From Lentisphaerota bacterium (GTDB lineage: Bacteria > Verrucomicrobiota > Kiritimatiellia > JAAZAB01), in assembly GCA_016188985.1 (NCBI GenBank), contig JACPGM010000053.1:4290-68289 (forward strand): a DNA stretch of 64,000 nucleotides. The letters run 5' to 3'. The position numbers and the translations under genes are program-made. This document shows, piece after piece, positions 26,782 to 48,824 of the stretch; positions within the stretch are counted from its first letter, which is position 1, and every line of letters starts with the position of its first letter. The notes beneath the pieces are model-generated. The model had not been told where the DNA came from, made no database searches, and worked only from the letters and a program-made list of their open reading frames with translations.

Positions 26782-26816
26782 AATGCAGAATGCAGAATGC
26801 AGAATGCAGAATGCAG
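26782..26816. repeat. Heptamer satellite (AATGCAG)x5 directly after the ilvD stop
   Basis: Five perfect tandem units. A 3-unit variant follows the comF-like stop at 47782-47802. Confidence 0.85.
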
Positions 26817-26930
26817 AAACATCGAATATCGAATGACGGAGTAAGAACAAAGAAGAACCAGGAACCGTTGTGTGCCGCGGTAGCAGTTTATCCGCCGTAG
26901 CTTCTTAGCGAAGGCGGATGGCCACTGTGG

Positions 26931-27092
26931 CTCGAATTCGGTTTCCCGCGCGAGCGGGATTCGGGAAAGCAAGGCAAGCTTGGGATGAATGCCGGTGCGC
27001 CGCGTGAAGTCATAGGACTTCTGTCCATGCGAGCGCGGAAAAACCGGCAGGCGGCCCAAGATCGCCGCCGCATTTCCCGAACCGAATTCGAG
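26931..27092 (-). mobile_element. MITE-like repeat, family D, copy 2 (TIR CTCGAATTCGGTT)
   Basis: ctcgaattcggtt...aaccgaattcgag termini. The interior is homologous to 14603-14761 in inverted orientation. Confidence 0.7.
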
Positions 27093-27144
27093 ACGCATTG
27101 ACCCAGAACAGGCAGTCTTGGGTTGCGGGCACAGCCCGCATTGG

Positions 27145-29335: not shown

Positions 29336-29372
29336 GTCTTTGGTGTCCTTGTTGTCCCTTGAGTCCTTTCCC
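29336..29372 (+). repeat. Left copy of a ~37-nt direct repeat flanking the four-helix-bundle cassette
   Basis: gtctttggtgtccttgttgtcccttgagtcctttcc compared with 30009-30045 gtctttggtgtctttgttgtccctttggtcttttgcc. Confidence 0.75.
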
Positions 29373-29387
29373 CACCCGGAGCAAGCC

Positions 29388-29948
29388 ATGAACGCGGGTT
29401 TCATCCCGAAACACGGCGGTTACAAAAAGTTGCTCTCCTACCAGAAGTCCGAGATTGTCTACGATGCCACGGTCTATTTCTGCGATCGTTTCATTGATAA
29501 GCGCAGTCGCACCCATGATCAGATGGTGCAGGCAGCGCGCTCCGGCAAGCAGAACATCATCGAAGGCAGTATGGCCTCCGCGACCTCCAAGGAGACCGAA
29601 ATCACGCTGACCAATGTGGCGCGCGCCAGCCTGGAGGAATTGCTGGGCGATTACCGCGATTTCCTGCGCGGGCGCGGCGTGCAGGAATGGCCGAAAGACC
29701 ACGTCTATGCGCGCCGATTGCGCGCGCTCAACAAGATACCGGATGCTACTTATGCCACCTTTAAAAAAGGCATCGAGAACCCCGACCCGGTAATTTCCGC
29801 CAATGTGATCATCGGCCTGATCCGTGTGGCCAGCTACCTGCTGGATCGGCAGATCCGGCATTTGGAGCGCGCCTTCGTCAAAGAAGGCGGCCTGCGCGAG
29901 CGCATGACCCGCGCCCGTCTCGAAGAACGAAGAAAGTCCGGATCATAA
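29388..29948 (+). CDS. Four-helix-bundle protein (23S-rRNA-IVS-protein family) with a C-terminal suffix domain
   Basis: 'YQKSEIVYDATVYFCDRF', 'QMVQAARSGKQNIIEG' and 'ARASLEELLGDYRDFL' fit the four-helix-bundle family pattern. ATG 29388 was chosen. Confidence 0.8.
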   Translation: MNAGFIPKHGGYKKLLSYQKSEIVYDATVYFCDRFIDKRSRTHDQMVQAARSGKQNIIEGSMASATSKETEITLTNVARASLEELLGDYRDFLRGRGVQEWPKDHVYARRLRALNKIPDATYATFKKGIENPDPVISANVIIGLIRVASYLLDRQIRHLERAFVKEGGLRERMTRARLEERRKSGS

Positions 29949-30008
29949 GCCGCTTTAGATGCCTCAAAGGTCGGCAAATACTGCCAAGGCTCTCATGATT
30001 GCGGGGCT

Positions 30009-30045
30009 GTCTTTGGTGTCTTTGTTGTCCCTTTGGTCTTTTGCC
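30009..30045 (+). repeat. Right copy of the ~37-nt direct repeat flanking the four-helix-bundle cassette
   Basis: See 29336-29372. Confidence 0.75.
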
Positions 30046-30190
30046 GCTCAGGGTAATCGGATGGGAGTGTTAAATGGAACAATCCGGTTCGGTCTCAGGC
30101 TGACCAGGTCCCGGCACAGGTATAGATAACGCATGAAAATCTTACAAATTATTGTTGACTTACTTATTGATATATGTTTAACTTTGGGCC

Positions 30191-30484
30191 ATGAAAAGAA
30201 CCGGACCTAACGATTCGGTGCAGTTTTCCGTCAAAGGCCAGGTGGTCATTCCCCGCCGGCTGCGCCGGGAGTACCATATCGAGGAGGGCACGCGCGCCGT
30301 TGTCCAGGCGACTTCCGAGGGTATTCTGATCAAACCGGTGACCAGGGGTCGCATTCAGCGGTTCCGCGGCATCCTCAAGCGGAAACCGGGCGGGAAACCG
30401 TTTGCCCAGGAGTGGGCCGATCATAAGGCCGAAGAAAAAGCATTGGAGGAGGCCAAGTATGCCCGCCTCGCCGGTTCTCGATAG
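30191..30484 (+). CDS. vapB: AbrB/SpoVT-type antitoxin (VapB-like)
   Basis: 'VKGQVVIPRRLRREYHIEEGTRAVVQATSEGILIKP' is the swapped-hairpin AbrB fold signature. It overlaps the PIN gene. Confidence 0.8.
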   Translation: MKRTGPNDSVQFSVKGQVVIPRRLRREYHIEEGTRAVVQATSEGILIKPVTRGRIQRFRGILKRKPGGKPFAQEWADHKAEEKALEEAKYARLAGSR

Positions 30485-30863
30485 TTTTGCCCTGCTGAGT
30501 TTTCTCCGCGATGAACCTGGGGCGGAGATGGTGGCAACGCTCCTGGAAAAGGCAGAGGAGCGCAGGCACCCCCTTCAGATGACCGAGGTCAATTACGCCG
30601 AGGTCCAATATATCGTTCGCCGCAAGGATGGGGAGGCTGCCTGGCGCATTGTCGCGGACGAACTGGCGACCATGCCCATCGAATTTCGGCCGGCCGACCG
30701 TCCGCTGGCCGATCAGGCCGCCGATTTCAAGACGCGTTTCCAGCTCAGCCTGGCCGCCGCCTTTGCCGCCGCCCTGGCGAAGCTCCGCAAGGCCGTACTT
30801 GTTACCGGCGATCCCGATTTTAAACAGGTTGAGGGTGAAATCGGGATCGGCTGGCTGAAATGA
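30459..30863 (+). CDS. vapC: PIN-domain toxin (VapC-like)
   Basis: 'PVLDSFALLSFLRDEPG', 'VNYAEV' and 'LVTGDPDF'. The expected third acidic residue appears replaced ('LSLAAAF'). ATG 30459 overlaps the antitoxin by 26 nt. Confidence 0.8.
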   Translation: MPASPVLDSFALLSFLRDEPGAEMVATLLEKAEERRHPLQMTEVNYAEVQYIVRRKDGEAAWRIVADELATMPIEFRPADRPLADQAADFKTRFQLSLAAAFAAALAKLRKAVLVTGDPDFKQVEGEIGIGWLK

Positions 30864-31008
30864 CCGCCATGCATTTATACGTCGGTCATGGATAATCGCA
30901 TTGCAATTATACGATAATGATGCAGATTGTCATTGTGAGGAAGCGTGTATTGGCTGAAGTGTTTTTCCCAGCCAGTGTTTACCGTGAGGATGCCGCAGAG
31001 AATTAGCC

Positions 31009-32304
31009 GTGAAAGAATGTGAAACCATAGAATTCAAGAAGAGTCTGTCAGAACTCAAGGAGGGCTTGGTCTCCATTGTGGCCATCCTGAACAAGCATGG
31101 CTCCGGTGAACTGTGGTTTGGCGTCCGCAACGACGGTGTCAGCGTTGGCCTGGATGCCACAACAAAGACCCTTCGTGATGTTTCGCAAGCGATTAGTGCG
31201 CACATTGAACCGAGGATTTTCCCGCACGTCACACTGGAATCCTGCGCCAGGGAGCTGGAGAATCTTATCCTTTCCAGGAATAGCGAGCGACTTCGCTGGG
31301 ACAACAAAGTGTGTGCTGTTTCTATCGGTGACCTGGATAAAGCCGGAATCAGGCGGTTTATCGCGCGTGCCGGACTCGTATGGGATACCCCGACAAATGC
31401 GCTGGAGAAACTCGGACTTCTTCATGCCGGAAAGCTGGTGAATGCGGCCCCGCTGTTCTTTGCGCGAAAGGCTCCGCTGCAACTGCGTTGCGCCGTTTTT
31501 CTGACGACCGAGAGTTCAACAATTATTGACCGGCATGATTTTGACGGCAACATCCTCGAACTGATAGAAGAGGCTCAACGCTACATTCTCAAAAACATCC
31601 ATATCGGCATGCGTGTCAAGGGGCTTTACCGCGAAGACGTGCCGGAAATCTCGGTTGATGCCCTGCGTGAGGCCATTATCAACGCCTTCTGCCATCGTGA
31701 TTACCGCGATCCGGATTATGTGCACGTTGCGATTTTCAAAGACCGCGTCGAAATCCGAAATCCTGGCAGGTTGTTCGGATCACTGACCTTGGACGATTTG
31801 CGCAAAGGATATGTGTCGCAACGGCGCAATCCATTGATCGCCGATCTGTTCCGCCGCATCGAGATGGTGGAAGCCTGGGGTCGCGGCATGCCGTTGATCA
31901 TCAAGAATGCTCCCGACGTCGTGTTTCGCGAAATCGGCAATCTTTTCATCGTTTCCTTCAACCGGCCATCTTATGCGGATGAATCTGGCAGGGGTGATGC
32001 GTCAAGTTCGGGAAAGGAAGTTCCGGTAAGAGGGTTCCTGAAAGAAAGTTCCGGCAAGAAGGTATCTGAAGAAGGTTCGGGAAAGAAGGTTCGGGAAAGA
32101 AGGTTCGGGAAAGATTCTGGAAAAACCGGACATCAAATACTCGATTTCCTTTCACAGCAACCCGAGATGACGGTTCCTGAACTTGCCGGGCGGCTGGGAC
32201 TAACGACTCGCGCGATTGAGAAGCAAATCGCCAAATTGCGGGATGCGAAATTACTGCTTCGCACAGGCGGACGTAAAATAGGGCGTTGGGAGGTGCAGAA
32301 ATGA
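31009..32304 (+). CDS. AlbA_2 (Schlafen-core-like) + HATPase_c_4-like + C-terminal wHTH protein
   Basis: N-terminus 'ECETIEFKKSLSELKEG...GELWFGVRNDG', centre 'EAIINAFCHRDYRDPDYVHVAIFKDRVEIRNPG', C-terminus 'MTVPELAGRLGLTTRAIEKQIAKLRDAKLL'. GTG start. Confidence 0.8.
   Translation: MKECETIEFKKSLSELKEGLVSIVAILNKHGSGELWFGVRNDGVSVGLDATTKTLRDVSQAISAHIEPRIFPHVTLESCARELENLILSRNSERLRWDNKVCAVSIGDLDKAGIRRFIARAGLVWDTPTNALEKLGLLHAGKLVNAAPLFFARKAPLQLRCAVFLTTESSTIIDRHDFDGNILELIEEAQRYILKNIHIGMRVKGLYREDVPEISVDALREAIINAFCHRDYRDPDYVHVAIFKDRVEIRNPGRLFGSLTLDDLRKGYVSQRRNPLIADLFRRIEMVEAWGRGMPLIIKNAPDVVFREIGNLFIVSFNRPSYADESGRGDASSSGKEVPVRGFLKESSGKKVSEEGSGKKVRERRFGKDSGKTGHQILDFLSQQPEMTVPELAGRLGLTTRAIEKQIAKLRDAKLLLRTGGRKIGRWEVQK
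32071..32112 (+). repeat. Perfect 14-nt tandem repeat (GAAGGTTCGGGAAA)x3 inside the AlbA_2-family CDS
   Basis: Three exact head-to-tail units sit inside a longer tract of degenerate 13-14-nt units (about 32003-32125). Confidence 0.9.
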
Positions 32305-32702
32305 CTTCCGCCGTGAAATGTGGGACAACGCGACGACGGACGGCCCGGGGGTGTCAGTTCCACGCGCTTGCGGACATCGAAAAATAAGCAGGAAACCGCT
32401 CCTGGCATTTTGACGGAGTGGATGTTCTGCCGGTGAGCGAGTTTCTGCGCCAGTTGCATCAGGGAAAGGTTTTTTGAAAAACACTAACCGAATATGTTTT
32501 GCCGCCGGAAATAAATATCCCCTTATTAAGGGCCACTGGGACAACAAAAAGCTAACTTCGCGTGAATGCACCCGGCTCCAGAGATACGAAGATTATTGGT
32601 CCAGATTCCGGCTGCGCTATATGTAAAAGTACCACAATCGCAATTCGCACTGGCAGACAGCCAGCCGTCAGAAAAACCAGTTAAAAATATGATATACATG
32701 TG

Positions 32703-34703
32703 ATGAAAACGACTTCAACCCCTCGTCTGACGCGCTCTTGGTTCGTCCGAACCATAGCTGAATTTGAGAGTGCATCTGACGATCAAGTACTTGCCGAACT
32801 GGTCAGGGGCAGTTTGTTTCCCATTCTGCAATCTCAGAGGGATGCTTGGCTCGCAGAACTGCCATTTTTGCGGAGGGCCCTGACCGGCCATACGGGAATG
32901 GTGTACCTTGAGTTCGCAATCCCGAGGATGGGGCATCGCGTTGATGCGGTCGTGTTGATAAACGGGATTGTTTTGGCAATAGAATTCAAGATCGATGCGA
33001 GGGAATACTTTCTGAGCGATGTTGACCAGGTATACGACTACGCGATCGATCTCAAATACTTCCACGAGGCCAGCCATAACCTATCGGTAGTGCCAATTCT
33101 CGTGGCATCACGGGCAAAGACCAGGTTCTTCCTGCTTGCACCACACGCGAGAGTATCTGGACTTTGTCAACCAATCTGCACGAATGCTGAGGATTTGGCA
33201 GCGACCATCAACTGTGTGATAAGCAAGTTGCCTGCGGAATGCGTTGACCCGGCCACATGGGAGGCTTCTCGTTATTGCCCAACCCCCACAATCGTTGAGG
33301 CCGCCCGCGCTCTCTACGCCGGTCATGGCGTCGCCGACATCTCGCGCAACGATGCAGGAGCCATCAATCTGAGCGAGACATCAGAACAGTTAGTGCGAAT
33401 CATTGAAACCTCGAAGTCCTTGGGCCAAAAGGCCATTTGTTTCGTCACCGGAGTGCCGGGTGCCGGGAAGACACTTGTGGGGCTTAACATTGCGACGAAG
33501 TATAACGACCCCAAGAGTGAACTTCATAGTGTGTTTCTTTCGGGGAACGGCCCTCTTGTAGCAATTCTCCGCGAAGCTCTGGCGCGAGACACCATTCAAC
33601 GCGAACGTGTTAAAGGAAACCGACTCAGGAAAGGCGACGCCATGGCACGGGTGAAGGCGTTTATCCAAAACGTACACCATTTTCGGGATGAATGTCTCCT
33701 TGATCAGTCTCGTCCGCCTGTCGATCATGTCGCGTTGTTTGATGAGGCGCAACGCGCCTGGGATCAGGAGCAGACGGCCTTGTTTATGCGCCGCAAGAAG
33801 GGGGTCACAGGCTTCAACGTATCGGAGCCAGAGTTCCTGATTTCGTGCATGGATCGGCGCAACGATTGGGCGGTGATTGTTTGCCTTGTCGGCGGAGGGC
33901 AAGAGATCAACACTGGGGAGGCCGGCATTGGGGAATGGATTGAGGCCGTGCAACGCGCATTTGGCGAGTGGCACCTGTACATCTCTCCTGCGTTAACGGA
34001 TAGCGAATATGGCGCGGGAAAACTTCTCGAAGCAATCAGGAACCGCGCTAATGTGCACTACCTGCAGGAACTTCATCTTGGCGTCTCAATGCGCTCATTT
34101 CGAGCCGAAAAGGTTTCGGCCTTCGTCAAGATGGTTTTGGATTTCGAAATTACCCGAGCGCGGGATCTATTGCAGGAGTTTGAGGGTCGCTATCCCATCG
34201 TGTTGACCCGCAATTTGGACCTCGCAAGACAATGGTTGCGCGATCAAGCCAGTGGAAACGAGCGGTTTGGGATTGTTGTATCATCGCAGGCAGAGCGATT
34301 GAAACCATATGCCATTGATGTTCGAACGCCTGTGAATCCTGTGAAGTGGTTTCTCGATGGAAAAGACGATGTGCGGTCATCGTACTACCTTGAAGATGTT
34401 GCGACCGAATTTCATGTACAAGGGCTTGAGCTCGACTGGGTGTGCGTATCGTGGGACGGCGATTTTCGCTACAACGAACACGGCTGGCAGCACCTCTCAT
34501 TTCGCGGCACCAAGTGGCAGCGCATCAACAAGGCTTCCAGAAAAAACTACCTCAAGAATGCCTATCGTGTCCTACTCACACGGGCGCGTCAGGGAATGGT
34601 GATATTCATTCCTGAAGGAAGTTCAACTGATCCAACAAGGCATCCGAGTTACTATGACTCGACTTTTGCCTACTTGCGGTCAATTGGGCTGCGCGAGTTG
34701 TAG
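32703..34703 (+). CDS. DUF2075-type P-loop NTPase/helicase-like protein with an N-terminal PD-(D/E)XK-like nuclease core
   Basis: 'RVDAVVLINGIVLAIEFK' (D...ExK), Walker A 'GVPGAGKT', Walker B 'ALFDEAQRAW' and C-terminus 'YRVLLTRARQGMVIF'. Length 666 aa. Confidence 0.85.
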   Translation: MKTTSTPRLTRSWFVRTIAEFESASDDQVLAELVRGSLFPILQSQRDAWLAELPFLRRALTGHTGMVYLEFAIPRMGHRVDAVVLINGIVLAIEFKIDAREYFLSDVDQVYDYAIDLKYFHEASHNLSVVPILVASRAKTRFFLLAPHARVSGLCQPICTNAEDLAATINCVISKLPAECVDPATWEASRYCPTPTIVEAARALYAGHGVADISRNDAGAINLSETSEQLVRIIETSKSLGQKAICFVTGVPGAGKTLVGLNIATKYNDPKSELHSVFLSGNGPLVAILREALARDTIQRERVKGNRLRKGDAMARVKAFIQNVHHFRDECLLDQSRPPVDHVALFDEAQRAWDQEQTALFMRRKKGVTGFNVSEPEFLISCMDRRNDWAVIVCLVGGGQEINTGEAGIGEWIEAVQRAFGEWHLYISPALTDSEYGAGKLLEAIRNRANVHYLQELHLGVSMRSFRAEKVSAFVKMVLDFEITRARDLLQEFEGRYPIVLTRNLDLARQWLRDQASGNERFGIVVSSQAERLKPYAIDVRTPVNPVKWFLDGKDDVRSSYYLEDVATEFHVQGLELDWVCVSWDGDFRYNEHGWQHLSFRGTKWQRINKASRKNYLKNAYRVLLTRARQGMVIFIPEGSSTDPTRHPSYYDSTFAYLRSIGLREL

Positions 34704-34714
34704 ACCGCTAATGC

Positions 34715-35080
34715 TTGCATCCATCTGACGTAACCGCTTCCCGACGCGGAGACATTCTTGCCGTCGGCGAAGGACAGGTTTTCCACATCGAGAGTTCCTT
34801 CGATTCCCTTAGCCGTATCGGATCCATCATGCAGATACAGGAGACGCAGAAAGAGGGGGATATGCCTATGGAGTTTTCCCCGGAAGGCGACAAGATTGTC
34901 ATCTTTCTGTCCAAGAGCGATTTTGCGGAATCATGCCCGGCAGGTTATTTCGATGTAAAACAAAACGGAACCCCATGCGGTGAAGCAGGGCACGCACCAG
35001 CCTTTCGGGTTTTGTGTCTTTACACCGAATGCGGCTCATGTTCCAACTGCGTTGCTGTGGCGTTAAAATATCAATCATAG
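34715..35080 (+). CDS. Hypothetical small Cys-rich protein (weak call)
   Basis: ORF only, with no recognisable motif. An internal Met (MQIQETQ...) is the more plausible start. Confidence 0.2.
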   Translation: MHPSDVTASRRGDILAVGEGQVFHIESSFDSLSRIGSIMQIQETQKEGDMPMEFSPEGDKIVIFLSKSDFAESCPAGYFDVKQNGTPCGEAGHAPAFRVLCLYTECGSCSNCVAVALKYQS

Positions 35081-35463
35081 CGTCATTGCCTCTATTTGCT
35101 CTCCACTGTTGAGTAGACGATTTATCAAGGGAGGCTTGCGATCATCATTAAAGCCGGGACGTCAAGAGGCTCGAAGCGGACAAGTCTATTTCTGTTCTGT
35201 GCCTGCGCCGCTTGCATGTTCACAGCGGTTTTGAATGTATCAGGGCATATCCGGAAAAGCCAGTTGAAATCCACATAAATCCTCCTACGCCCAACGTCAG
35301 GCTATGAAGGACGGGACGGAGGGCGGAATGACGTACGCCGGACGCCGGCCGGAGTGTCCTCATCCGTCGCTCCAAGAGCTATGGATGGCAGGCAGGGAAC
35401 TTTTCATTGTTTTAATATGTAGATAGTTGTTGACAAGTCCCTACATTATGAAACACTGCCGTC

Positions 35464-36069
35464 ATGAGCACTAAGGCAAAATCTATTCTGGAACTCGCTC
35501 GGTATAAAGGGTTCATCAGGGCGCGCGACCTTATTCAGCACGCGATTCCAACTGTGTATCTTGGACGACTGACCCACTTGGGTCTGCTGGAGCGCGTTAG
35601 CCGCGGGCTGTATCGCCTGCCGGATTCTGAAGTGACGGAGCACTATTCACTGGCAGAGGTGGCCGCCAAGGTGCCGGGCGGGGTGGTTTGTCTGCTTTCG
35701 GCGCTCAACTTCCATATTATTGGCACACAACAGCCGCACGAGGTATGGCTGGCAATCCCGGAGAAGGCGCGCCAACCACGACTGAAAAGTCCGCGCCTGC
35801 GCCTATTCCGCTTCTCCAAGTCGGCCTTCACGGAGGGCGTAGAGACTCACGTTATCCAAGGGATACCGGTGAAGGTGTATAGCCCGGCCAAGACTGTAGC
35901 CGACTGCTTCAAGTATCGAAATAAAATCGGACTGGATGTAGCCATGGAAGCGCTCCGGGAAAGTCTGCGGTCCCGTAAGTGCACGCGGGAGGACATTCAT
36001 CGTTATGCCCGGATATGCCGGGTGTGGAATGTCATGCGGCCCTACCTGGAAATGGAGGCTTCGTCGTGA
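35464..36069 (+). CDS. AbiEi-family type IV TA antitoxin (wHTH, AbiEi_4-like N-terminus)
   Basis: 'ILELARYKGFIRARDLIQHAIPTVYLGRLTHLGLLERVSRGLYRL' is the characteristic AbiEi N-terminal wHTH. Length 201 aa. Confidence 0.8.
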   Translation: MSTKAKSILELARYKGFIRARDLIQHAIPTVYLGRLTHLGLLERVSRGLYRLPDSEVTEHYSLAEVAAKVPGGVVCLLSALNFHIIGTQQPHEVWLAIPEKARQPRLKSPRLRLFRFSKSAFTEGVETHVIQGIPVKVYSPAKTVADCFKYRNKIGLDVAMEALRESLRSRKCTREDIHRYARICRVWNVMRPYLEMEASS

Positions 36070-44974: not shown

Positions 44975-45273
44975 AATTTAAAGTTCAAGGGTTCAGTGCT
45001 CAGGAGAGATGGCATGTTTTAGAGTGCCGATTTCCGATTTTGCGGCAATCCAAAATCTAAAATCTAAAATCCATCTTTAGGAACTTCGGGTCAAACCATA
45101 AAATAACACTTAACGACTTCAGAGTCCTAAATAAAAGGGGGATACTTTTTCGGGCGCGAAGGTCGGCCGGGGATGAACGGATCCCCGCAGGTGGTGGGAT
45201 GCGGCTCACGGTCGTGAGTCGCAATGAGCCGCAACGGGTTGCCTCCTGCGGCTACTATCCACATTAGGGGTTA

Positions 45274-47055: not shown

Positions 47056-47772
47056 ATGAAACCCATGCTGCATGCCTTGATGGATATTGTCTTTCCGCGC
47101 TTCTGCGCCGGCTGCGGCCATGAAATCGGCGGGGTCTCCGGATATTTGTGCTGGGATTGCCAAACGCGCTTCGAGTGGATTCATCCGCCCTTTTGCGAGA
47201 TTTGCGGCGATCCGCTGGAAGGCGACGTGCCAATGCCGGTGGTTTGCGCGGGGTGCCGGCAAGGGCTTCCCGCCTTTGAGCGGGCCCGCTCGGTAGCGCG
47301 GTTCCGCGGCGTCTTGCGCGAGCTCTTGCATGATTTCAAGTATCGGGGGGCTACCTGGCTCAGCGGCGACCTGGTGGGACTGCTGCGGACTTGCTACGAA
47401 ATCTACTTTGCCCGGGCCGGTTTTGACACCGTGACCTACGTACCCTTGTATCCCGCGCGCGAGCGGGAACGCTCCTATAACCAGGCGCTGCTGCTGGCCC
47501 AGGGCCTGGCCGGCACCTGCCCGGGCCTGGCGCTGCGCGCGTGTTTACGGCGCATTCGGCCAACCCGCTCGCAAACCAATTTGACAGCCGCAGAGCGACT
47601 TGCTAACGTTAAAGACATGTTCGCGATCCGTTCGTCCCGGGACACGCAGGGCAAACGTATCCTGTTGATTGATGATGTCATGACCACCGGCGCGACGGTC
47701 AATGAATGCGCGCTCACCCTCAAAGAGGCCGGGGCCTCTCTGATCGGCGTGCTGACCGTAGGGCGCGGGTAG
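47056..47772 (+). CDS. ComF family protein (phosphoribosyltransferase-domain)
   Basis: N-terminal double CxxC zinc finger 'CAGCGHE...CWDC...CEICG...CAGC'. PRT motif 'ILLIDDVMTTGATV'. Confidence 0.85.
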   Translation: MKPMLHALMDIVFPRFCAGCGHEIGGVSGYLCWDCQTRFEWIHPPFCEICGDPLEGDVPMPVVCAGCRQGLPAFERARSVARFRGVLRELLHDFKYRGATWLSGDLVGLLRTCYEIYFARAGFDTVTYVPLYPARERERSYNQALLLAQGLAGTCPGLALRACLRRIRPTRSQTNLTAAERLANVKDMFAIRSSRDTQGKRILLIDDVMTTGATVNECALTLKEAGASLIGVLTVGRG

Positions 47773-47802: not shown

Positions 47803-47921
47803 AAACAGGCCGACGGACGCCAGAGGCCAGGCGCCAGATGTCGGAACTGATGTCGGAAATCAGCAATCCGTAATCCAAAATCCAAAATTAGAATAATCCG
47901 CAATCCGAAATCGAAACAATT

Positions 47922-48824
47922 ATGCGCTTATTCGTCCGCAAGAAATATACGGCCATCAAGGTCCAGAAAAAGGATTTGCCCAGCGGCTTGTGGGTAAAAT
48001 GCCAGGACTGCAACGAAATTGCCTATAAGCATGAAATAGATGCGCTCCAGGGTGTTTGCCCGAAATGCGGGTTTCATTTTCAGATTTTGCCTCAGGAGCG
48101 GCTCGCGCAGATGGTTGAAACAGGCTCATTCCAGGAATGGGATGCCGACCTGGTAAGCGCGGACCCGTTGGAATTCAACGGCCAGGTTTCTTATGTAGCC
48201 AAGTTGGCGGAGAACCGCCGGAAAGGCCCGCTCAAGGAGGCGGTCCTCTGCGGCCAGGGGCGCATGGGGCCGTTCACGGTGGCGCTGGGCATCATGGATT
48301 TCAATTTTCTGGGCGGCAGTATGGGCTCGGTGGTTGGCGAAAAAATCACCCGGCTGTTTGAGCGCGCCACCCGGCAACGTCTGGGGATCATCGTGGTCTG
48401 CGCCACGGGCGGCGCTCGGATGTACGAGGGGCTCTTCAGTCTGATGCAGATGGCCAAAACCAGCGCCGCCGTGGCGGCCCACGCCCAGGCCGCGCTGCCC
48501 TTCATTTCGGTATTGACCCATCCCTCCATGGCCGGGGTTATGGCCAGTTTTGCCACGCTGGGCGATGTCATCATTGCCGAGCCGAAGGCCCTCATCGGCT
48601 TTGCCGGCCCGCGGGTGATCAAGGAAACAACCCGCGAAGATATCCCCAAAGGATTTCAACGGTCGGAGTTTGTCCTCAAACATGGTCTTATTGATATGAT
48701 TGTTCCGCGCAAGGACTTGACCAGCACCCTGATCCGTCTGCTGGGTTACATGCTGCCCTTGGTAGAAGAAAAAGCAAACATTCAACATCCAACTCCGAAC
48801 AGCACAAGTCCAAACCAAGGATAG
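47922..48824 (+). CDS. accD: Acetyl-CoA carboxylase carboxyltransferase subunit beta
   Basis: N-terminal zinc ribbon 'CQDCNE...CPKCGFH', plus 'MDFNFLGGSMGSVVGEK' and 'GGARMYEG'. Confidence 0.95.
   Translation: MRLFVRKKYTAIKVQKKDLPSGLWVKCQDCNEIAYKHEIDALQGVCPKCGFHFQILPQERLAQMVETGSFQEWDADLVSADPLEFNGQVSYVAKLAENRRKGPLKEAVLCGQGRMGPFTVALGIMDFNFLGGSMGSVVGEKITRLFERATRQRLGIIVVCATGGARMYEGLFSLMQMAKTSAAVAAHAQAALPFISVLTHPSMAGVMASFATLGDVIIAEPKALIGFAGPRVIKETTREDIPKGFQRSEFVLKHGLIDMIVPRKDLTSTLIRLLGYMLPLVEEKANIQHPTPNSTSPNQG

What the first reader, a model, noticed from the sequence alone, without database searches (positions are those of the whole stretch)
32003..32125. Non-triplet (14-nt) tandem repeat inside the AlbA_2-family CDS; possible phase-variation switch
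Seen: three perfect head-to-tail copies of GAAGGTTCGGGAAA occupy 32071-32112. About 5-6 degenerate 13-14-nt copies flank them (about 32003-32125). The tract lies in the linker between the HATPase_c_4-like block and the C-terminal wHTH. Because 14 is not a multiple of 3, the same DNA unit is read in all three frames (protein ...GSGKK/VRERR/FGKDS...). Three units make 42 nt and keep the frame. Gain or loss of one unit would shift the frame and delete the wHTH. Established: non-triplet tandem repeats within CDSs are the classic slipped-strand contingency-locus mechanism and are often found in RM/defence genes. Inference: expression of the full-length protein could be stochastically switchable.
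Basis: partly seen in the sequence, partly recalled or inferred. Interest (0 to 1): 0.55.

Follow-up and report, generated by a model that had tools for sequence, protein, structure and literature searches.

The report
Fourteen-base repeat encoding a protein linker
A real 14-base DNA repeat encodes the floppy tether of a defence-island DNA-binding protein and is read in all three frames; relatives show it is an old and mostly stable family trait, not a demonstrated on/off switch.

Summary
Window 32006-32116 holds 8 head-to-tail units of GTTCGGGAAAGnnn (seven of 14 nt, one of 13 nt; 111 nt = 37 codons). The exact period-14 run is 32069-32114. It encodes the disordered tether between the HATPase_c_4 core and the C-terminal winged helix of ORF 31009-32304.

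The phase-variation reading is only partly supported. A one-unit change would remove the winged helix, and one natural 2-unit allele exists, but in a gene remnant. Against a switch:
- The array matches that of a diverged relative (L082) unit for unit.
- A 97%-identical pair (L081/L094) has the same copy number.
- All 25 relatives in this clade with an intact, full-length gene read in frame.
- Only 3.3 copies are perfect.

The tract is the local form of a family-wide feature. 77 of 81 homologue tails carry a tandem repeat at this junction, usually 12 nt (4 aa). Units of 11 and 14 nt recur, so one DNA word is read in three frames (SSGKK/VRERK/FGKE). Repeat codons are conserved far better than flanking synonymous sites (0.95 against 0.46). 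Homology between relatives often breaks at the array, and the window gene is itself such a mosaic.

Best reading: a slippage- and recombination-prone coding minisatellite, frame-locked in this clade. The window copy also lacks 27 conserved AlbA_2 residues.

The parts
31009..32304 (+). CDS, 431 aa: AlbA_2 / HATPase_c_4 / C-terminal winged helix protein that contains the repeat
   Evidence: ORF list. Pfam hits. 100% identical to a protein of a Lentisphaerae MAG.
31015..31317 (+). SLFN_AlbA_2 domain (aa 3-103). It carries an in-frame 27-codon deletion; the junction is at aa 77-81 (ESCAR), nt 31237-31251.
   Evidence: Pfam. Comparison with P0002/L081. The lost block is nearly invariant in alignment A1. 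AF2 pLDDT is 34-63 over aa 1-100.
31720..31911 (+). HATPase_c_4 block (aa 238-301)
   Evidence: Pfam E = 1.5e-19
31987..32115 (+). Predicted disordered tether (aa 327-369)
   Evidence: AlphaFold2 with a 62-sequence alignment: pLDDT 28-36 and no secondary structure here, against 89-94 in the following winged helix
32006..32116 (+). Tandem array of 8 units (GTTCGGGAAAGGAA, GTTCCGGTAAGAGG, GTTCCTGAAAGAAA, GTTCCGGCAAGAAG, GTATCTGAAGAAG, GTTCGGGAAAGAAG, GTTCGGGAAAGAAG, GTTCGGGAAAGATT). It encodes SSGKEVPVRGFLKESSGKKVSEEGSGKKVRERRFGKDS.
32062..32074 (+). The single 13-nt unit. With its 14-nt neighbour it makes 27 nt (SSGKKVSEE) and keeps the total at a multiple of three.
   Evidence: The same 13-nt unit is at the same place in L082.
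32069..32114 (+). Exact period-14 run (3.3 perfect copies). This is the only part that would be a good slippage substrate.
32117..32130 (+). Degenerate terminal unit (CTGGAAAAACCGGA). It encodes SGKTG and leads into helix 1 of the winged helix.
   Evidence: Equivalent GTTCCGGTAAGACC or GTTCGGGAAAAACC units end the arrays of relatives.
32128..32256 (+). C-terminal winged helix-turn-helix (aa 374-416). Its DNA is closest to L082, whereas the DNA upstream of the array is closest to L081/L094.
   Evidence: Pfam. Sliding identity. Flank comparison.

Best explanation
The tract is an old coding minisatellite. It makes up the flexible, disordered tether between the ATPase-like core and the C-terminal winged-helix DNA-binding domain of an AlbA_2/HATPase_c_4 protein. 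Orthologues of this protein sit between hsdM and hsdS in type I restriction-modification operons.

Almost every member of the family carries a short tandem DNA repeat at exactly this junction, usually 12 nt (4 aa) in about 3 perfect copies. In this clade the unit is an 11-nt core, GTTCGGGAAAG or GTTCCGGTAAG, followed by about 3 variable bases. The unit is not a multiple of three, so only unit combinations whose total length is a multiple of three are found in intact genes (3x14 = 42 nt, or 14+13 = 27 nt). One DNA word is therefore translated in all three frames as SSGKK / VRERK / FGKE. All three readings of the core unit are stop-free and hydrophilic.

The array is made and remodelled by replication slippage and unequal recombination (inferred). 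It is also the point at which C-terminal DNA-binding cassettes are exchanged between alleles. Mosaics show this, and the window gene is one of them.

In the 12-nt relatives copy number changes freely and alters tether length. In this 14-nt clade a single-unit change is a frameshift, so the array is effectively frame-locked and changes rarely. The tract is therefore not an operating high-frequency on/off switch. One-unit slips can and occasionally do inactivate the gene.
For: Shown:
- The repeat is real and coincides with the disordered segment.
- 77 of 81 homologue tails have a tandem repeat at this junction. Periods are 12 nt in 60, 11 nt in 7, 14 nt in 3, and 22, 24 or 33 nt in 7.
- In the 14-nt clade, 11 loci from independent assemblies carry the same unit in 3-9 copies, read in all three frames.
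- The same 11-nt core occurs at period 11 in L098 and at periods 13 and 14 elsewhere.
- The array is stable. Window and L082 match unit for unit at 88% nt identity in the adjacent domain. L081 and L094 are 97% identical with the same 7 units.
- 25 of 25 clade proteins with an intact, full-length gene are in frame.
- 12-nt arrays vary between near-identical genes. L035 and L038 (99.2% identical) have 3 and 2 copies. L025 and L030 have 2 and 4. L057 and L066 have identical core flanks but different copy numbers.
- Mosaicism. Window against L081/L094 is 92-98% nt identical up to the array and 47-75% after it. Window against L082 is 85-90% after it.
- In 34 of 56 gene pairs with at least 85% identity before the linker, identity drops by 20 points or more just after the array.
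- L016 keeps a displaced second repeat+wHTH cassette after its stop codon.
- Orthologues lie between hsdM and hsdS.

Inferred: slippage as the generating process, and tether length as the selected property.
Against: - Repeat DNA is conserved beyond what a neutral, slippage-driven linker predicts. Codons of identical 4-aa units are the same in 246 of 260 comparisons (0.95), against 0.46 for flanking codons.
- In the 14-nt clade, third-codon positions of the core match the consensus in 146 of 162 cases. The units were preselected at 9 or more of 11 matches, which inflates this figure.
- This points to some extra constraint on the nucleic acid, or on repeat perfection, that the explanation does not name.
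- How triplets of 11- or 14-nt units arise without passing through out-of-frame intermediates is unexplained.
- No read-level or strain-level data exist for this organism.
- The function of the protein family is unknown.
Confidence: 0.62

Rival explanations
1. True contingency locus. The three perfect 14-nt units slip during replication at a useful rate. This reversibly turns production of the full-length, winged-helix-bearing protein on and off within the population.
For: - The unit is not a multiple of three, lies inside a CDS, and has 3.3 perfect copies.
- A one-unit change gives truncated 385 or 391 aa products.
- A natural 2-unit, out-of-frame allele exists (L097).
- The family is linked to restriction-modification loci, where repeat-driven phase variation is known (PMC7383803).
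- The recurrence of 11- and 14-nt units in sets of three implies that out-of-frame intermediates were tolerated at times.
Against: - The array architecture is identical in diverged relatives.
- There is no copy-number difference in the 97%-identical pair L081/L094.
- All 25 clade proteins with an intact, full-length gene are in frame.
- The 2 out-of-frame cases are a 1-nt A-run change and a 5'-truncated remnant.
- Three-unit tracts switch at only about 1e-6, and lack of variation among homologues is taken as evidence against phase variation (PMC7383803).
- The window copy already lacks a nearly invariant 27-aa block of its AlbA_2 domain. It also sits outside a restriction-modification operon.
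Confidence: 0.1
2. The repeat is primarily a nucleic-acid element, and the peptide is a passenger. It would be a DNA or RNA motif array under sequence-level selection. Possible roles are a shared homology 'adaptor' that promotes exchange of C-terminal cassettes, or a set of binding sites for a protein such as the gene's own winged helix or AlbA_2 domain.
For: - Synonymous sites in the repeats are conserved far better than in the flanks: 0.95 against 0.46 same-codon, over 65 gene pairs with diverged flanks.
- 51 of 58 arrays are identical at the DNA level within a gene.
- The same 11-nt core is kept at periods 11, 13 and 14 while the peptide changes.
- Homology breakpoints cluster at the array.
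- L057 has a hybrid array, one VVEK unit followed by VGEK units.
Against: - The array shows no RNA structure (z = +0.29) and no Rfam match.
- Unit sequences differ widely between clades: ACTACCCAAGAA, ACTATCGATAAG, GTTCGGTGAAAA and others.
- Periods of 11 to 14 nt are hard to reconcile with phased binding on duplex DNA.
- Selection merely against imperfect arrays could also slow synonymous change.
- No extra copies of the unit occur near the gene beyond chance.
Confidence: 0.25
3. The periodicity is only a relic. Selection acts solely on a conserved 14-residue peptide (SSGKKVRERKFGKE) that has a specific role, for example a basic DNA-contacting arm.
For: - The peptide recurs in relatives at 59-79% identity.
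- In the P0016-18 / L007 branch the peptide (VPxxRFLKD twice) is kept while the 14-nt periodicity decays.
Against: - Third-codon positions of the core are almost as conserved as first and second positions.
- The same DNA unit is read in different frames in different orthologues. The number of units before the winged helix differs (3 to 9), so no fixed peptide is kept.
- Other clades have unrelated peptides at the same place.
- AlphaFold2 predicts no structure there.
Confidence: 0.08
4. Chance similarity or an assembly artefact of a metagenome-assembled genome.
For: The source is a MAG with a single contig on record.
Against: - 0 of 100,000 shuffles reach the observed periodicity.
- The same unit and architecture appear in at least 11 independently assembled loci.
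Confidence: 0.01

Closest known systems
Simple-sequence-repeat phase variation of type I restriction-modification genes (hsdM pentanucleotide tract in Haemophilus influenzae, hsdS tracts; survey in PMC7383803)
   Same: A tandem repeat whose unit is not a multiple of three lies inside a CDS of a gene family tied to type I RM loci. Gain or loss of one unit truncates the protein between two domains.
   Different: - The unit is 14 nt, far longer than the 1-9 nt units surveyed.
- Only 3.3 copies are perfect.
- No copy-number polymorphism is seen among close relatives.
- The host gene is an accessory AlbA_2/wHTH gene, not hsdM, hsdS or hsdR.
- The window copy is not in an RM operon.
The 12-bp TAEL repeat in the central spacer of HsdS (EcoR124I against EcoR124II), as described in PMC7383803 citing Price et al. 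1989
   Same: A short tandem repeat encodes the spacer between two DNA-recognition parts of an RM-locus protein. Copy number sets spacer length. This is the likely behaviour of the 12-nt arrays in most relatives of this gene.
   Different: - Here the unit is 14 nt, so single-unit changes are not tolerated.
- The spacer is predicted to be disordered rather than a coiled coil.
- An effect of length on DNA specificity is untested.
Coding minisatellites evolving in concert ('tuning knobs', in-frame repeat proteins)
   Same: - Units are identical within a gene but differ between clades.
- A substitution can be fixed in all units of one array (L059 TTG against L078 TTA).
- Copy-number differences occur between near-identical genes.
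   Different: - The array is positionally conserved across a whole protein family.
- Non-triplet units (11 and 14 nt) persist in sets of three, so the peptide is not periodic.
- Synonymous sites are conserved between distant genes.
Reassortment of HsdS target-recognition domains by recombination in conserved spacer regions
   Same: Variable DNA-binding modules are swapped at a conserved junction sequence. Mosaic genes have their breakpoints at the junction.
   Different: The junction here is a tandem repeat in an accessory gene. No recombinase or inverted repeats are evident, so exchange is inferred from mosaics only.

Membership tests
Slipped-strand ON/OFF contingency locus | Tandem repeat inside a CDS with a unit length that is not a multiple of three | tested here: met
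   14-nt unit in ORF 31009-32304
Slipped-strand ON/OFF contingency locus | A long perfect tract that gives a high slippage rate | tested here: not met
   Only 46 nt (3.3 units) are exact and the other units are 79% alike. Three-unit tracts switch at about 1e-6 (PMC7383803).
Slipped-strand ON/OFF contingency locus | Copy number differs between closely related strains or within a population | tested here: not met
   L081 and L094 (97% nt) have the same 7 units. Window and L082 have the same 8 units plus the 13-nt unit. The P0011-13 / L004 and P0004 / P0007 arrays are unchanged. Strains or reads of this organism itself are not available.
Slipped-strand ON/OFF contingency locus | Both in-frame and out-of-frame alleles are common in nature | tested here: not met
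   25 clade proteins with an intact, full-length gene are in frame. In the metagenome loci where tblastn found both core and wHTH, the two are in one frame, and the other complete tails run through to a C-terminal domain. Two out-of-frame cases exist: L096 (1-nt A-run change) and L097 (one unit fewer, in a 5'-truncated remnant).
Slipped-strand ON/OFF contingency locus | Reversible switching measured in clonal populations | not testable with these tools
   Needs culture or read-level data
In-frame spacer repeat that tunes length (HsdS TAEL type) | Tandem repeat encodes an interdomain spacer of a DNA-recognition protein | tested here: met
   The array is at aa 333-370, between HATPase_c_4 and the wHTH
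In-frame spacer repeat that tunes length (HsdS TAEL type) | Unit is a multiple of three, so copy number can change without a frameshift | tested here: not met
   14 nt here. Met in 60 of 81 relatives, which have 12-nt units.
In-frame spacer repeat that tunes length (HsdS TAEL type) | Copy number varies between close relatives | tested here: inconclusive
   Yes for 12-nt arrays (L035/L038, L025/L030, L057/L066, L071/L080). No for the 14-nt clade.
In-frame spacer repeat that tunes length (HsdS TAEL type) | Spacer length changes DNA target specificity | not testable with these tools
   Needs biochemical work
AlbA_2 / HATPase_c_4 / wHTH protein family (PF04326 + PF13749 + HTH) | All three domains detected above Pfam thresholds | tested here: met
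   PF04326 43.2 bits, PF13749 70.2 bits, HTH_11 26.2 bits and HTH_24 25.1 bits. 1471 homologues. The only solved relative is 3LMM.
AlbA_2 / HATPase_c_4 / wHTH protein family (PF04326 + PF13749 + HTH) | Intact AlbA_2 core, including the nearly invariant PY..GRAYMRVADEDR block | tested here: not met
   A 27-codon in-frame deletion relative to P0002/L081. pLDDT is low over aa 1-100.
AlbA_2 / HATPase_c_4 / wHTH protein family (PF04326 + PF13749 + HTH) | Tandem DNA repeat at the core/C-terminal-domain junction (a family trait found here) | tested here: met
   77 of 81 tails, including the window
Known structured RNA (Rfam) | Match to a covariance model, or significant folding | tested here: not met
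   No Rfam hit at E <= 1 in 30800-32800. Fold z-score +0.29.

The most novel reading that the evidence does not exclude
The linker repeat is a family-wide device conserved at the DNA level. It would be a short tandem array kept perfect and sequence-conserved, even at synonymous sites and across unit lengths of 11, 12 and 14 nt. It would give RM-associated AlbA_2/winged-helix proteins two kinds of rapid variation: tether length by slippage, and exchange of the DNA-binding cassette by recombination within the array. The 14-nt form in this window would be a frame-locked derivative, or at low rate an inactivating one. This would be a previously undescribed diversification mechanism for a defence-island protein family, analogous to but distinct from HsdS spacer repeats and TRD shuffling.
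Probability: 0.3. Interest if true: 0.7.

Novelty: new variant of a known kind. Interest (0 to 1): 0.5.

Why it matters
For this locus, the finding corrects a tempting annotation. A non-triplet repeat inside a defence-linked gene is not by itself a phase-variation switch, and here the comparative evidence argues against one.

The wider point is that a very large, uncharacterised protein family often embedded in type I RM operons carries a positionally fixed repeat array with three unusual properties:
- Its DNA is better conserved than neighbouring synonymous sites.
- It tolerates unit lengths that force one word to be read in three frames.
- It marks the breakpoint of domain exchange.

If this reflects selection for variability of tether length or of the DNA-binding cassette, it gives a concrete, testable handle on what these proteins recognise. 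It also bears on how defence-island accessory genes diversify. Finally, it is a clean natural example of frame-independent coding by a repeat.

Tried and rejected
- **Chance or artefact:** rejected by the shuffle test and by independent assemblies.
- **RNA element:** no Rfam hit and no excess folding (z = +0.29).
- **Dispersed copies of the unit in the window:** 14 matches at 3 or fewer mismatches against 5.7 expected. The excess is the array itself.
- **Exact-pattern scan of 185,579 species genomes** for two adjacent units: only 3 loci. Two are orthologues. One is an intergenic GTTCGGGAAAGCTG x4 tract in Terracidiphilus with no homology to this gene. Given the number of 14-nt repeats in that collection, this could be coincidence.
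- **Single-sequence AlphaFold2:** uninformative (mean pLDDT 38). It was repeated with an alignment.
- **Plasmid collection:** only one distant Mycoplasmopsis homologue, so no strain series.
- **Literature:** no paper in the held library mentions the repeat peptides or links HATPase_c_4/AlbA_2 proteins to such repeats.
- **Search with the linker plus winged helix alone:** 4 short proteins. Two were followed to DNA, L097 and L098.
- **Protein-only selection on a fixed 14-aa peptide:** considered and judged unlikely.
- **Strain-level copy-number comparison for the source organism:** impossible, because its protein cluster has one member.
Full report
**1. The observation**

The sequence at 32003-32125 is as described. 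In GTTC register there are eight head-to-tail units starting at 32006, 32020, 32034, 32048, 32062, 32075, 32089 and 32103. Seven are 14 nt and one (32062-32074) is 13 nt, so the array is 111 nt, or 37 codons. A degenerate ninth unit (32117-32130) runs into the next domain. The exact period-14 run is 32069-32114, which is 3.3 copies.

TRF scores the array 118, the highest value in the window. Lag-14 matches are 70 of 97. None of 100,000 shuffles reached that at any lag from 6 to 30.

The tract lies in ORF 31009-32304 (431 aa). Pfam places SLFN_AlbA_2 at aa 3-103, HATPase_c_4 at aa 238-301 and winged-helix models at aa 374-416. AlphaFold2 with a 62-sequence alignment gives pLDDT 28-36 and no secondary structure for aa 327-369, against 89-94 for the winged helix. 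The array (aa 333-370) is therefore the disordered tether.

Successive units are read in different frames and give SSGKK / VRERR / FGKD. Simulated alleles with one unit fewer or one more give 385 and 391 aa products without the winged helix.

**2. Source and surroundings**

The protein is identical to one from a Lentisphaerae MAG. The next relative is 79% identical, so there is no second strain to compare.

In the window the gene sits in a small accessory island between hisS and aspS. The island also holds a 23S-IVP four-helix-bundle gene, a MazE/PIN pair, a Schlafen-group-3 (DUF2075) helicase and an AbiEi_4 gene.

Orthologues P0003, P0006 and P0009 lie directly after hsdM, ahead of hsdS, in type I RM operons.

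The window copy lacks 27 codons that hold a nearly invariant block of the AlbA_2 domain. That domain models poorly, so this copy may be impaired.

**3. The same DNA unit in relatives**

DNA of eleven relatives from independent assemblies carries the same unit at the same place. The loci are L001, L004, L007, L081, L082, L084, L085, L087, L088, L090 and L094. The unit is GTTCGGGAAAGnnn, GTTCCGGTAAGnnn or GTTCCTAAAAGnnn, in 3 to 9 copies, with occasional 13-nt units, and always in frame.

The peptides SSGKKVRERKFGKE and SSGKKVPVRKFLKE seen in homologues at 59-79% identity are three such units read in three frames.

Among 43 core-class units from 11 loci, third-codon positions match the consensus in 146 of 162 cases and first or second positions in 295 of 311. 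The units were preselected at 9 or more of 11 matches, which inflates both figures. In the flanks, codons for identical residues are the same only 40-60% of the time. The 11-nt core also occurs at period 11 in another HATPase_c_4 gene fragment (L098, SSGK VRER FGKR).

**4. Is it a switch?**

The evidence is mostly negative.
- The window array aligns unit for unit with that of L082, including the 13-nt unit, although the adjoining winged-helix DNA is 88% identical.
- L081 and L094 are 97% identical in both flanks. They have the same seven units and two point differences in the array.
- The groups P0011-13 / L004, P0004 / P0007 and P0016-18 keep their architectures while accumulating substitutions.
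- All 25 distinct proteins with these motifs and an intact, full-length gene read through to the winged helix. In the metagenome loci where tblastn found both the core and the winged helix, the two are in one frame, and the other complete tails run through to a C-terminal domain.

Two out-of-frame cases exist.
- L096 has a 1-nt shift at an A-run beside its arrays.
- L097 has two instead of three GTTCGGGAAAG units. Its product is exactly the predicted minus-one-unit type, but the gene is a 5'-truncated remnant.

So unit slippage happens on evolutionary time, but nothing suggests a population-level ON/OFF polymorphism. A published survey of RM repeats gives about 1e-6 for three-unit tracts. It treats lack of variation among homologues as evidence against phase variation (PMC7383803).

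**5. The family-wide picture**

Eighty metagenome loci at 40-65% identity were fetched. Counting the window, 77 of 81 tails have a tandem repeat at this junction.
- Period 12 nt in 60 tails. Units are 4 aa, such as TTQE, TIDK, TTGK, VGEK, SSVK, TREK, TPQV and SRPE. There are usually about 3 perfect copies, and the last runs into helix 1.
- Period 11 nt in 7 tails, for example CCCCAAAGAAA x3.9, encoding KETPKKPQRNPKE.
- Period 14 nt in 3 tails.
- Period 22, 24 or 33 nt in 7 tails.

Non-triplet units have therefore arisen more than once, and always in sets that restore the frame.

Within a gene, units are identical at the DNA level in 51 of 58 arrays. Between genes that share a 4-aa unit but have diverged flanks, unit codons are identical in 246 of 260 comparisons (0.95), against 2147 of 4679 (0.46) in the flanks. 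These pairs are not independent. Even so, six mutually diverged TTQE loci all use ACT ACC CAA GAA.

Synonymous variants, when they occur, are fixed in every unit of an array, as in L059 against L078. This is the signature of concerted evolution.

The 12-nt arrays differ in copy number between near-identical genes (L035/L038, L025/L030, L057/L066, L071/L080).

**6. Recombination at the array**

The window gene is 92-98% identical in DNA to L081/L094 up to the array and 47-75% identical after it. It is 85-90% identical to L082 after the array.

Of 56 gene pairs with at least 85% identity in the 390 nt before the linker, 34 lose 20 points or more immediately after the array. Many fall to background, about 0.55, and the reverse pattern also occurs (blastn end-points).

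L016 retains a displaced second repeat+winged-helix cassette, in another frame, right after its stop codon. The array therefore marks the boundary at which C-terminal cassettes are exchanged.

**7. Interpretation**

The best-supported reading is a slippage- and recombination-prone coding minisatellite that forms the tether of this protein family. It is frame-locked in the 14-nt clade.

Two observations are not fully explained: the excess conservation of repeat DNA, and the origin of triplets of non-triplet units. They keep open a nucleic-acid-level role, such as a recombination adaptor, a binding array, or selection for repeat perfection.

No RNA structure or Rfam family fits. No paper in the held library describes these repeats.

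**8. Comparison with known systems, and verdict**

- The tract works in part like repeat tracts of phase-variable RM genes. However, it fails the tests of tract length, polymorphism and the presence of common OFF alleles.
- The 12-nt arrays of relatives behave like the HsdS TAEL spacer repeat of EcoR124I/II (PMC7383803).
- The mosaics resemble HsdS domain reassortment.

I rate it a new variant of a known kind. The specific switch hypothesis is unlikely (about 0.1). The family-wide phenomenon is of moderate interest.

Noticed in passing
window 26920-27103: A rod-like imperfect hairpin of about 185 nt lies between ilvD and hisS, with nested inverted repeats. MFE is -104.6 kcal/mol, z = -7.0 on the + strand and -6.5 on the - strand. 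There is no Rfam match at E <= 0.1. It could be an undescribed structured RNA or a palindromic mobile element.
   Followed up: partly
window 26782-26818: A perfect 7-nt tandem repeat, AATGCAG x5.3, starts three bases after the ilvD stop codon.
   Followed up: no
window 47856-47916 and 45047-45073: Degenerate 7-nt repeats (AATCCNA and AATCCAA). The tract at 47856-47916 lies between + strand ORFs 47056-47772 and 47922-48824; the context of 45047-45073 was not examined.
   Followed up: no
window 31237-31251 (aa 77-81 of the ORF): Junction of an in-frame 27-codon deletion relative to P0002/L081. It removes the nearly invariant C..F.G..PY..GRAYMRVADEDR.L block of the AlbA_2 domain. The N-terminal domain models poorly (pLDDT 34-63), so the window copy may be non-functional.
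   Followed up: yes
window 29340-36069: A small accessory island lies between hisS and aspS. It holds a 23S-IVP four-helix-bundle gene, a MazE/PIN toxin-antitoxin pair, the AlbA_2 gene, a Schlafen-group-3 (DUF2075) helicase with an unassigned N-terminal region of about 240 aa, and an AbiEi_4 gene. So the two halves of a eukaryotic Schlafen (AlbA_2 and the group-3 helicase) are encoded by adjacent genes.
   Followed up: partly
window 31958-32155, minus strand: A 65-aa antisense ORF spans the array. The repeat is free of stop codons in two of the three antisense frames, and the third has one stop at the very end of the stretch examined. The ORF is probably spurious.
   Followed up: no
L016 3340-3550: A second repeat+winged-helix cassette (TSEK VSEK ... 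GGYWEVVK) lies in another frame directly after the stop codon of the gene. It looks like the remains of a displaced C-terminal cassette.
   Followed up: yes
L097 (P0121) 140-454: A natural allele has two instead of three GTTCGGGAAAG units, which puts the winged helix out of frame. The gene is a 5'-truncated remnant on a 924-nt contig.
   Followed up: yes
L096 (P0120) about 1230-1290: A compound array region has 12-nt, 13/14-nt and 12-nt units. The core and the winged helix are in different frames because of an apparent 1-nt loss at an A-run. This could be a pseudogene or a sequencing error.
   Followed up: partly
L098 (P0124) about 1330-1370: The same 11-nt core, GTTCGGGAAAG, is repeated at period 11 (SSGK VRER FGKR) in a fragment of a different HATPase_c_4 gene.
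   Followed up: partly
L093 3829-3946 (Terracidiphilus MAG): An intergenic GTTCGGGAAAGCTG x4 tract lies upstream of a 1057-aa ORF provisionally read as uvrA-like from its C-terminal sequence only. There is no homology to the AlbA_2 gene. It could be coincidence or a hint that the motif has a life outside coding DNA.
   Followed up: partly
L082, L087 and the P0006 contig: Orthologues are inserted between hsdM and hsdS of type I RM operons, often with overlapping stop and start codons. In L082 a second, shorter AlbA_2 gene and a KilA-N gene are in the same operon. In the P0006 contig a DUF6602 gene and a DncV-like nucleotidyltransferase follow.
   Followed up: partly
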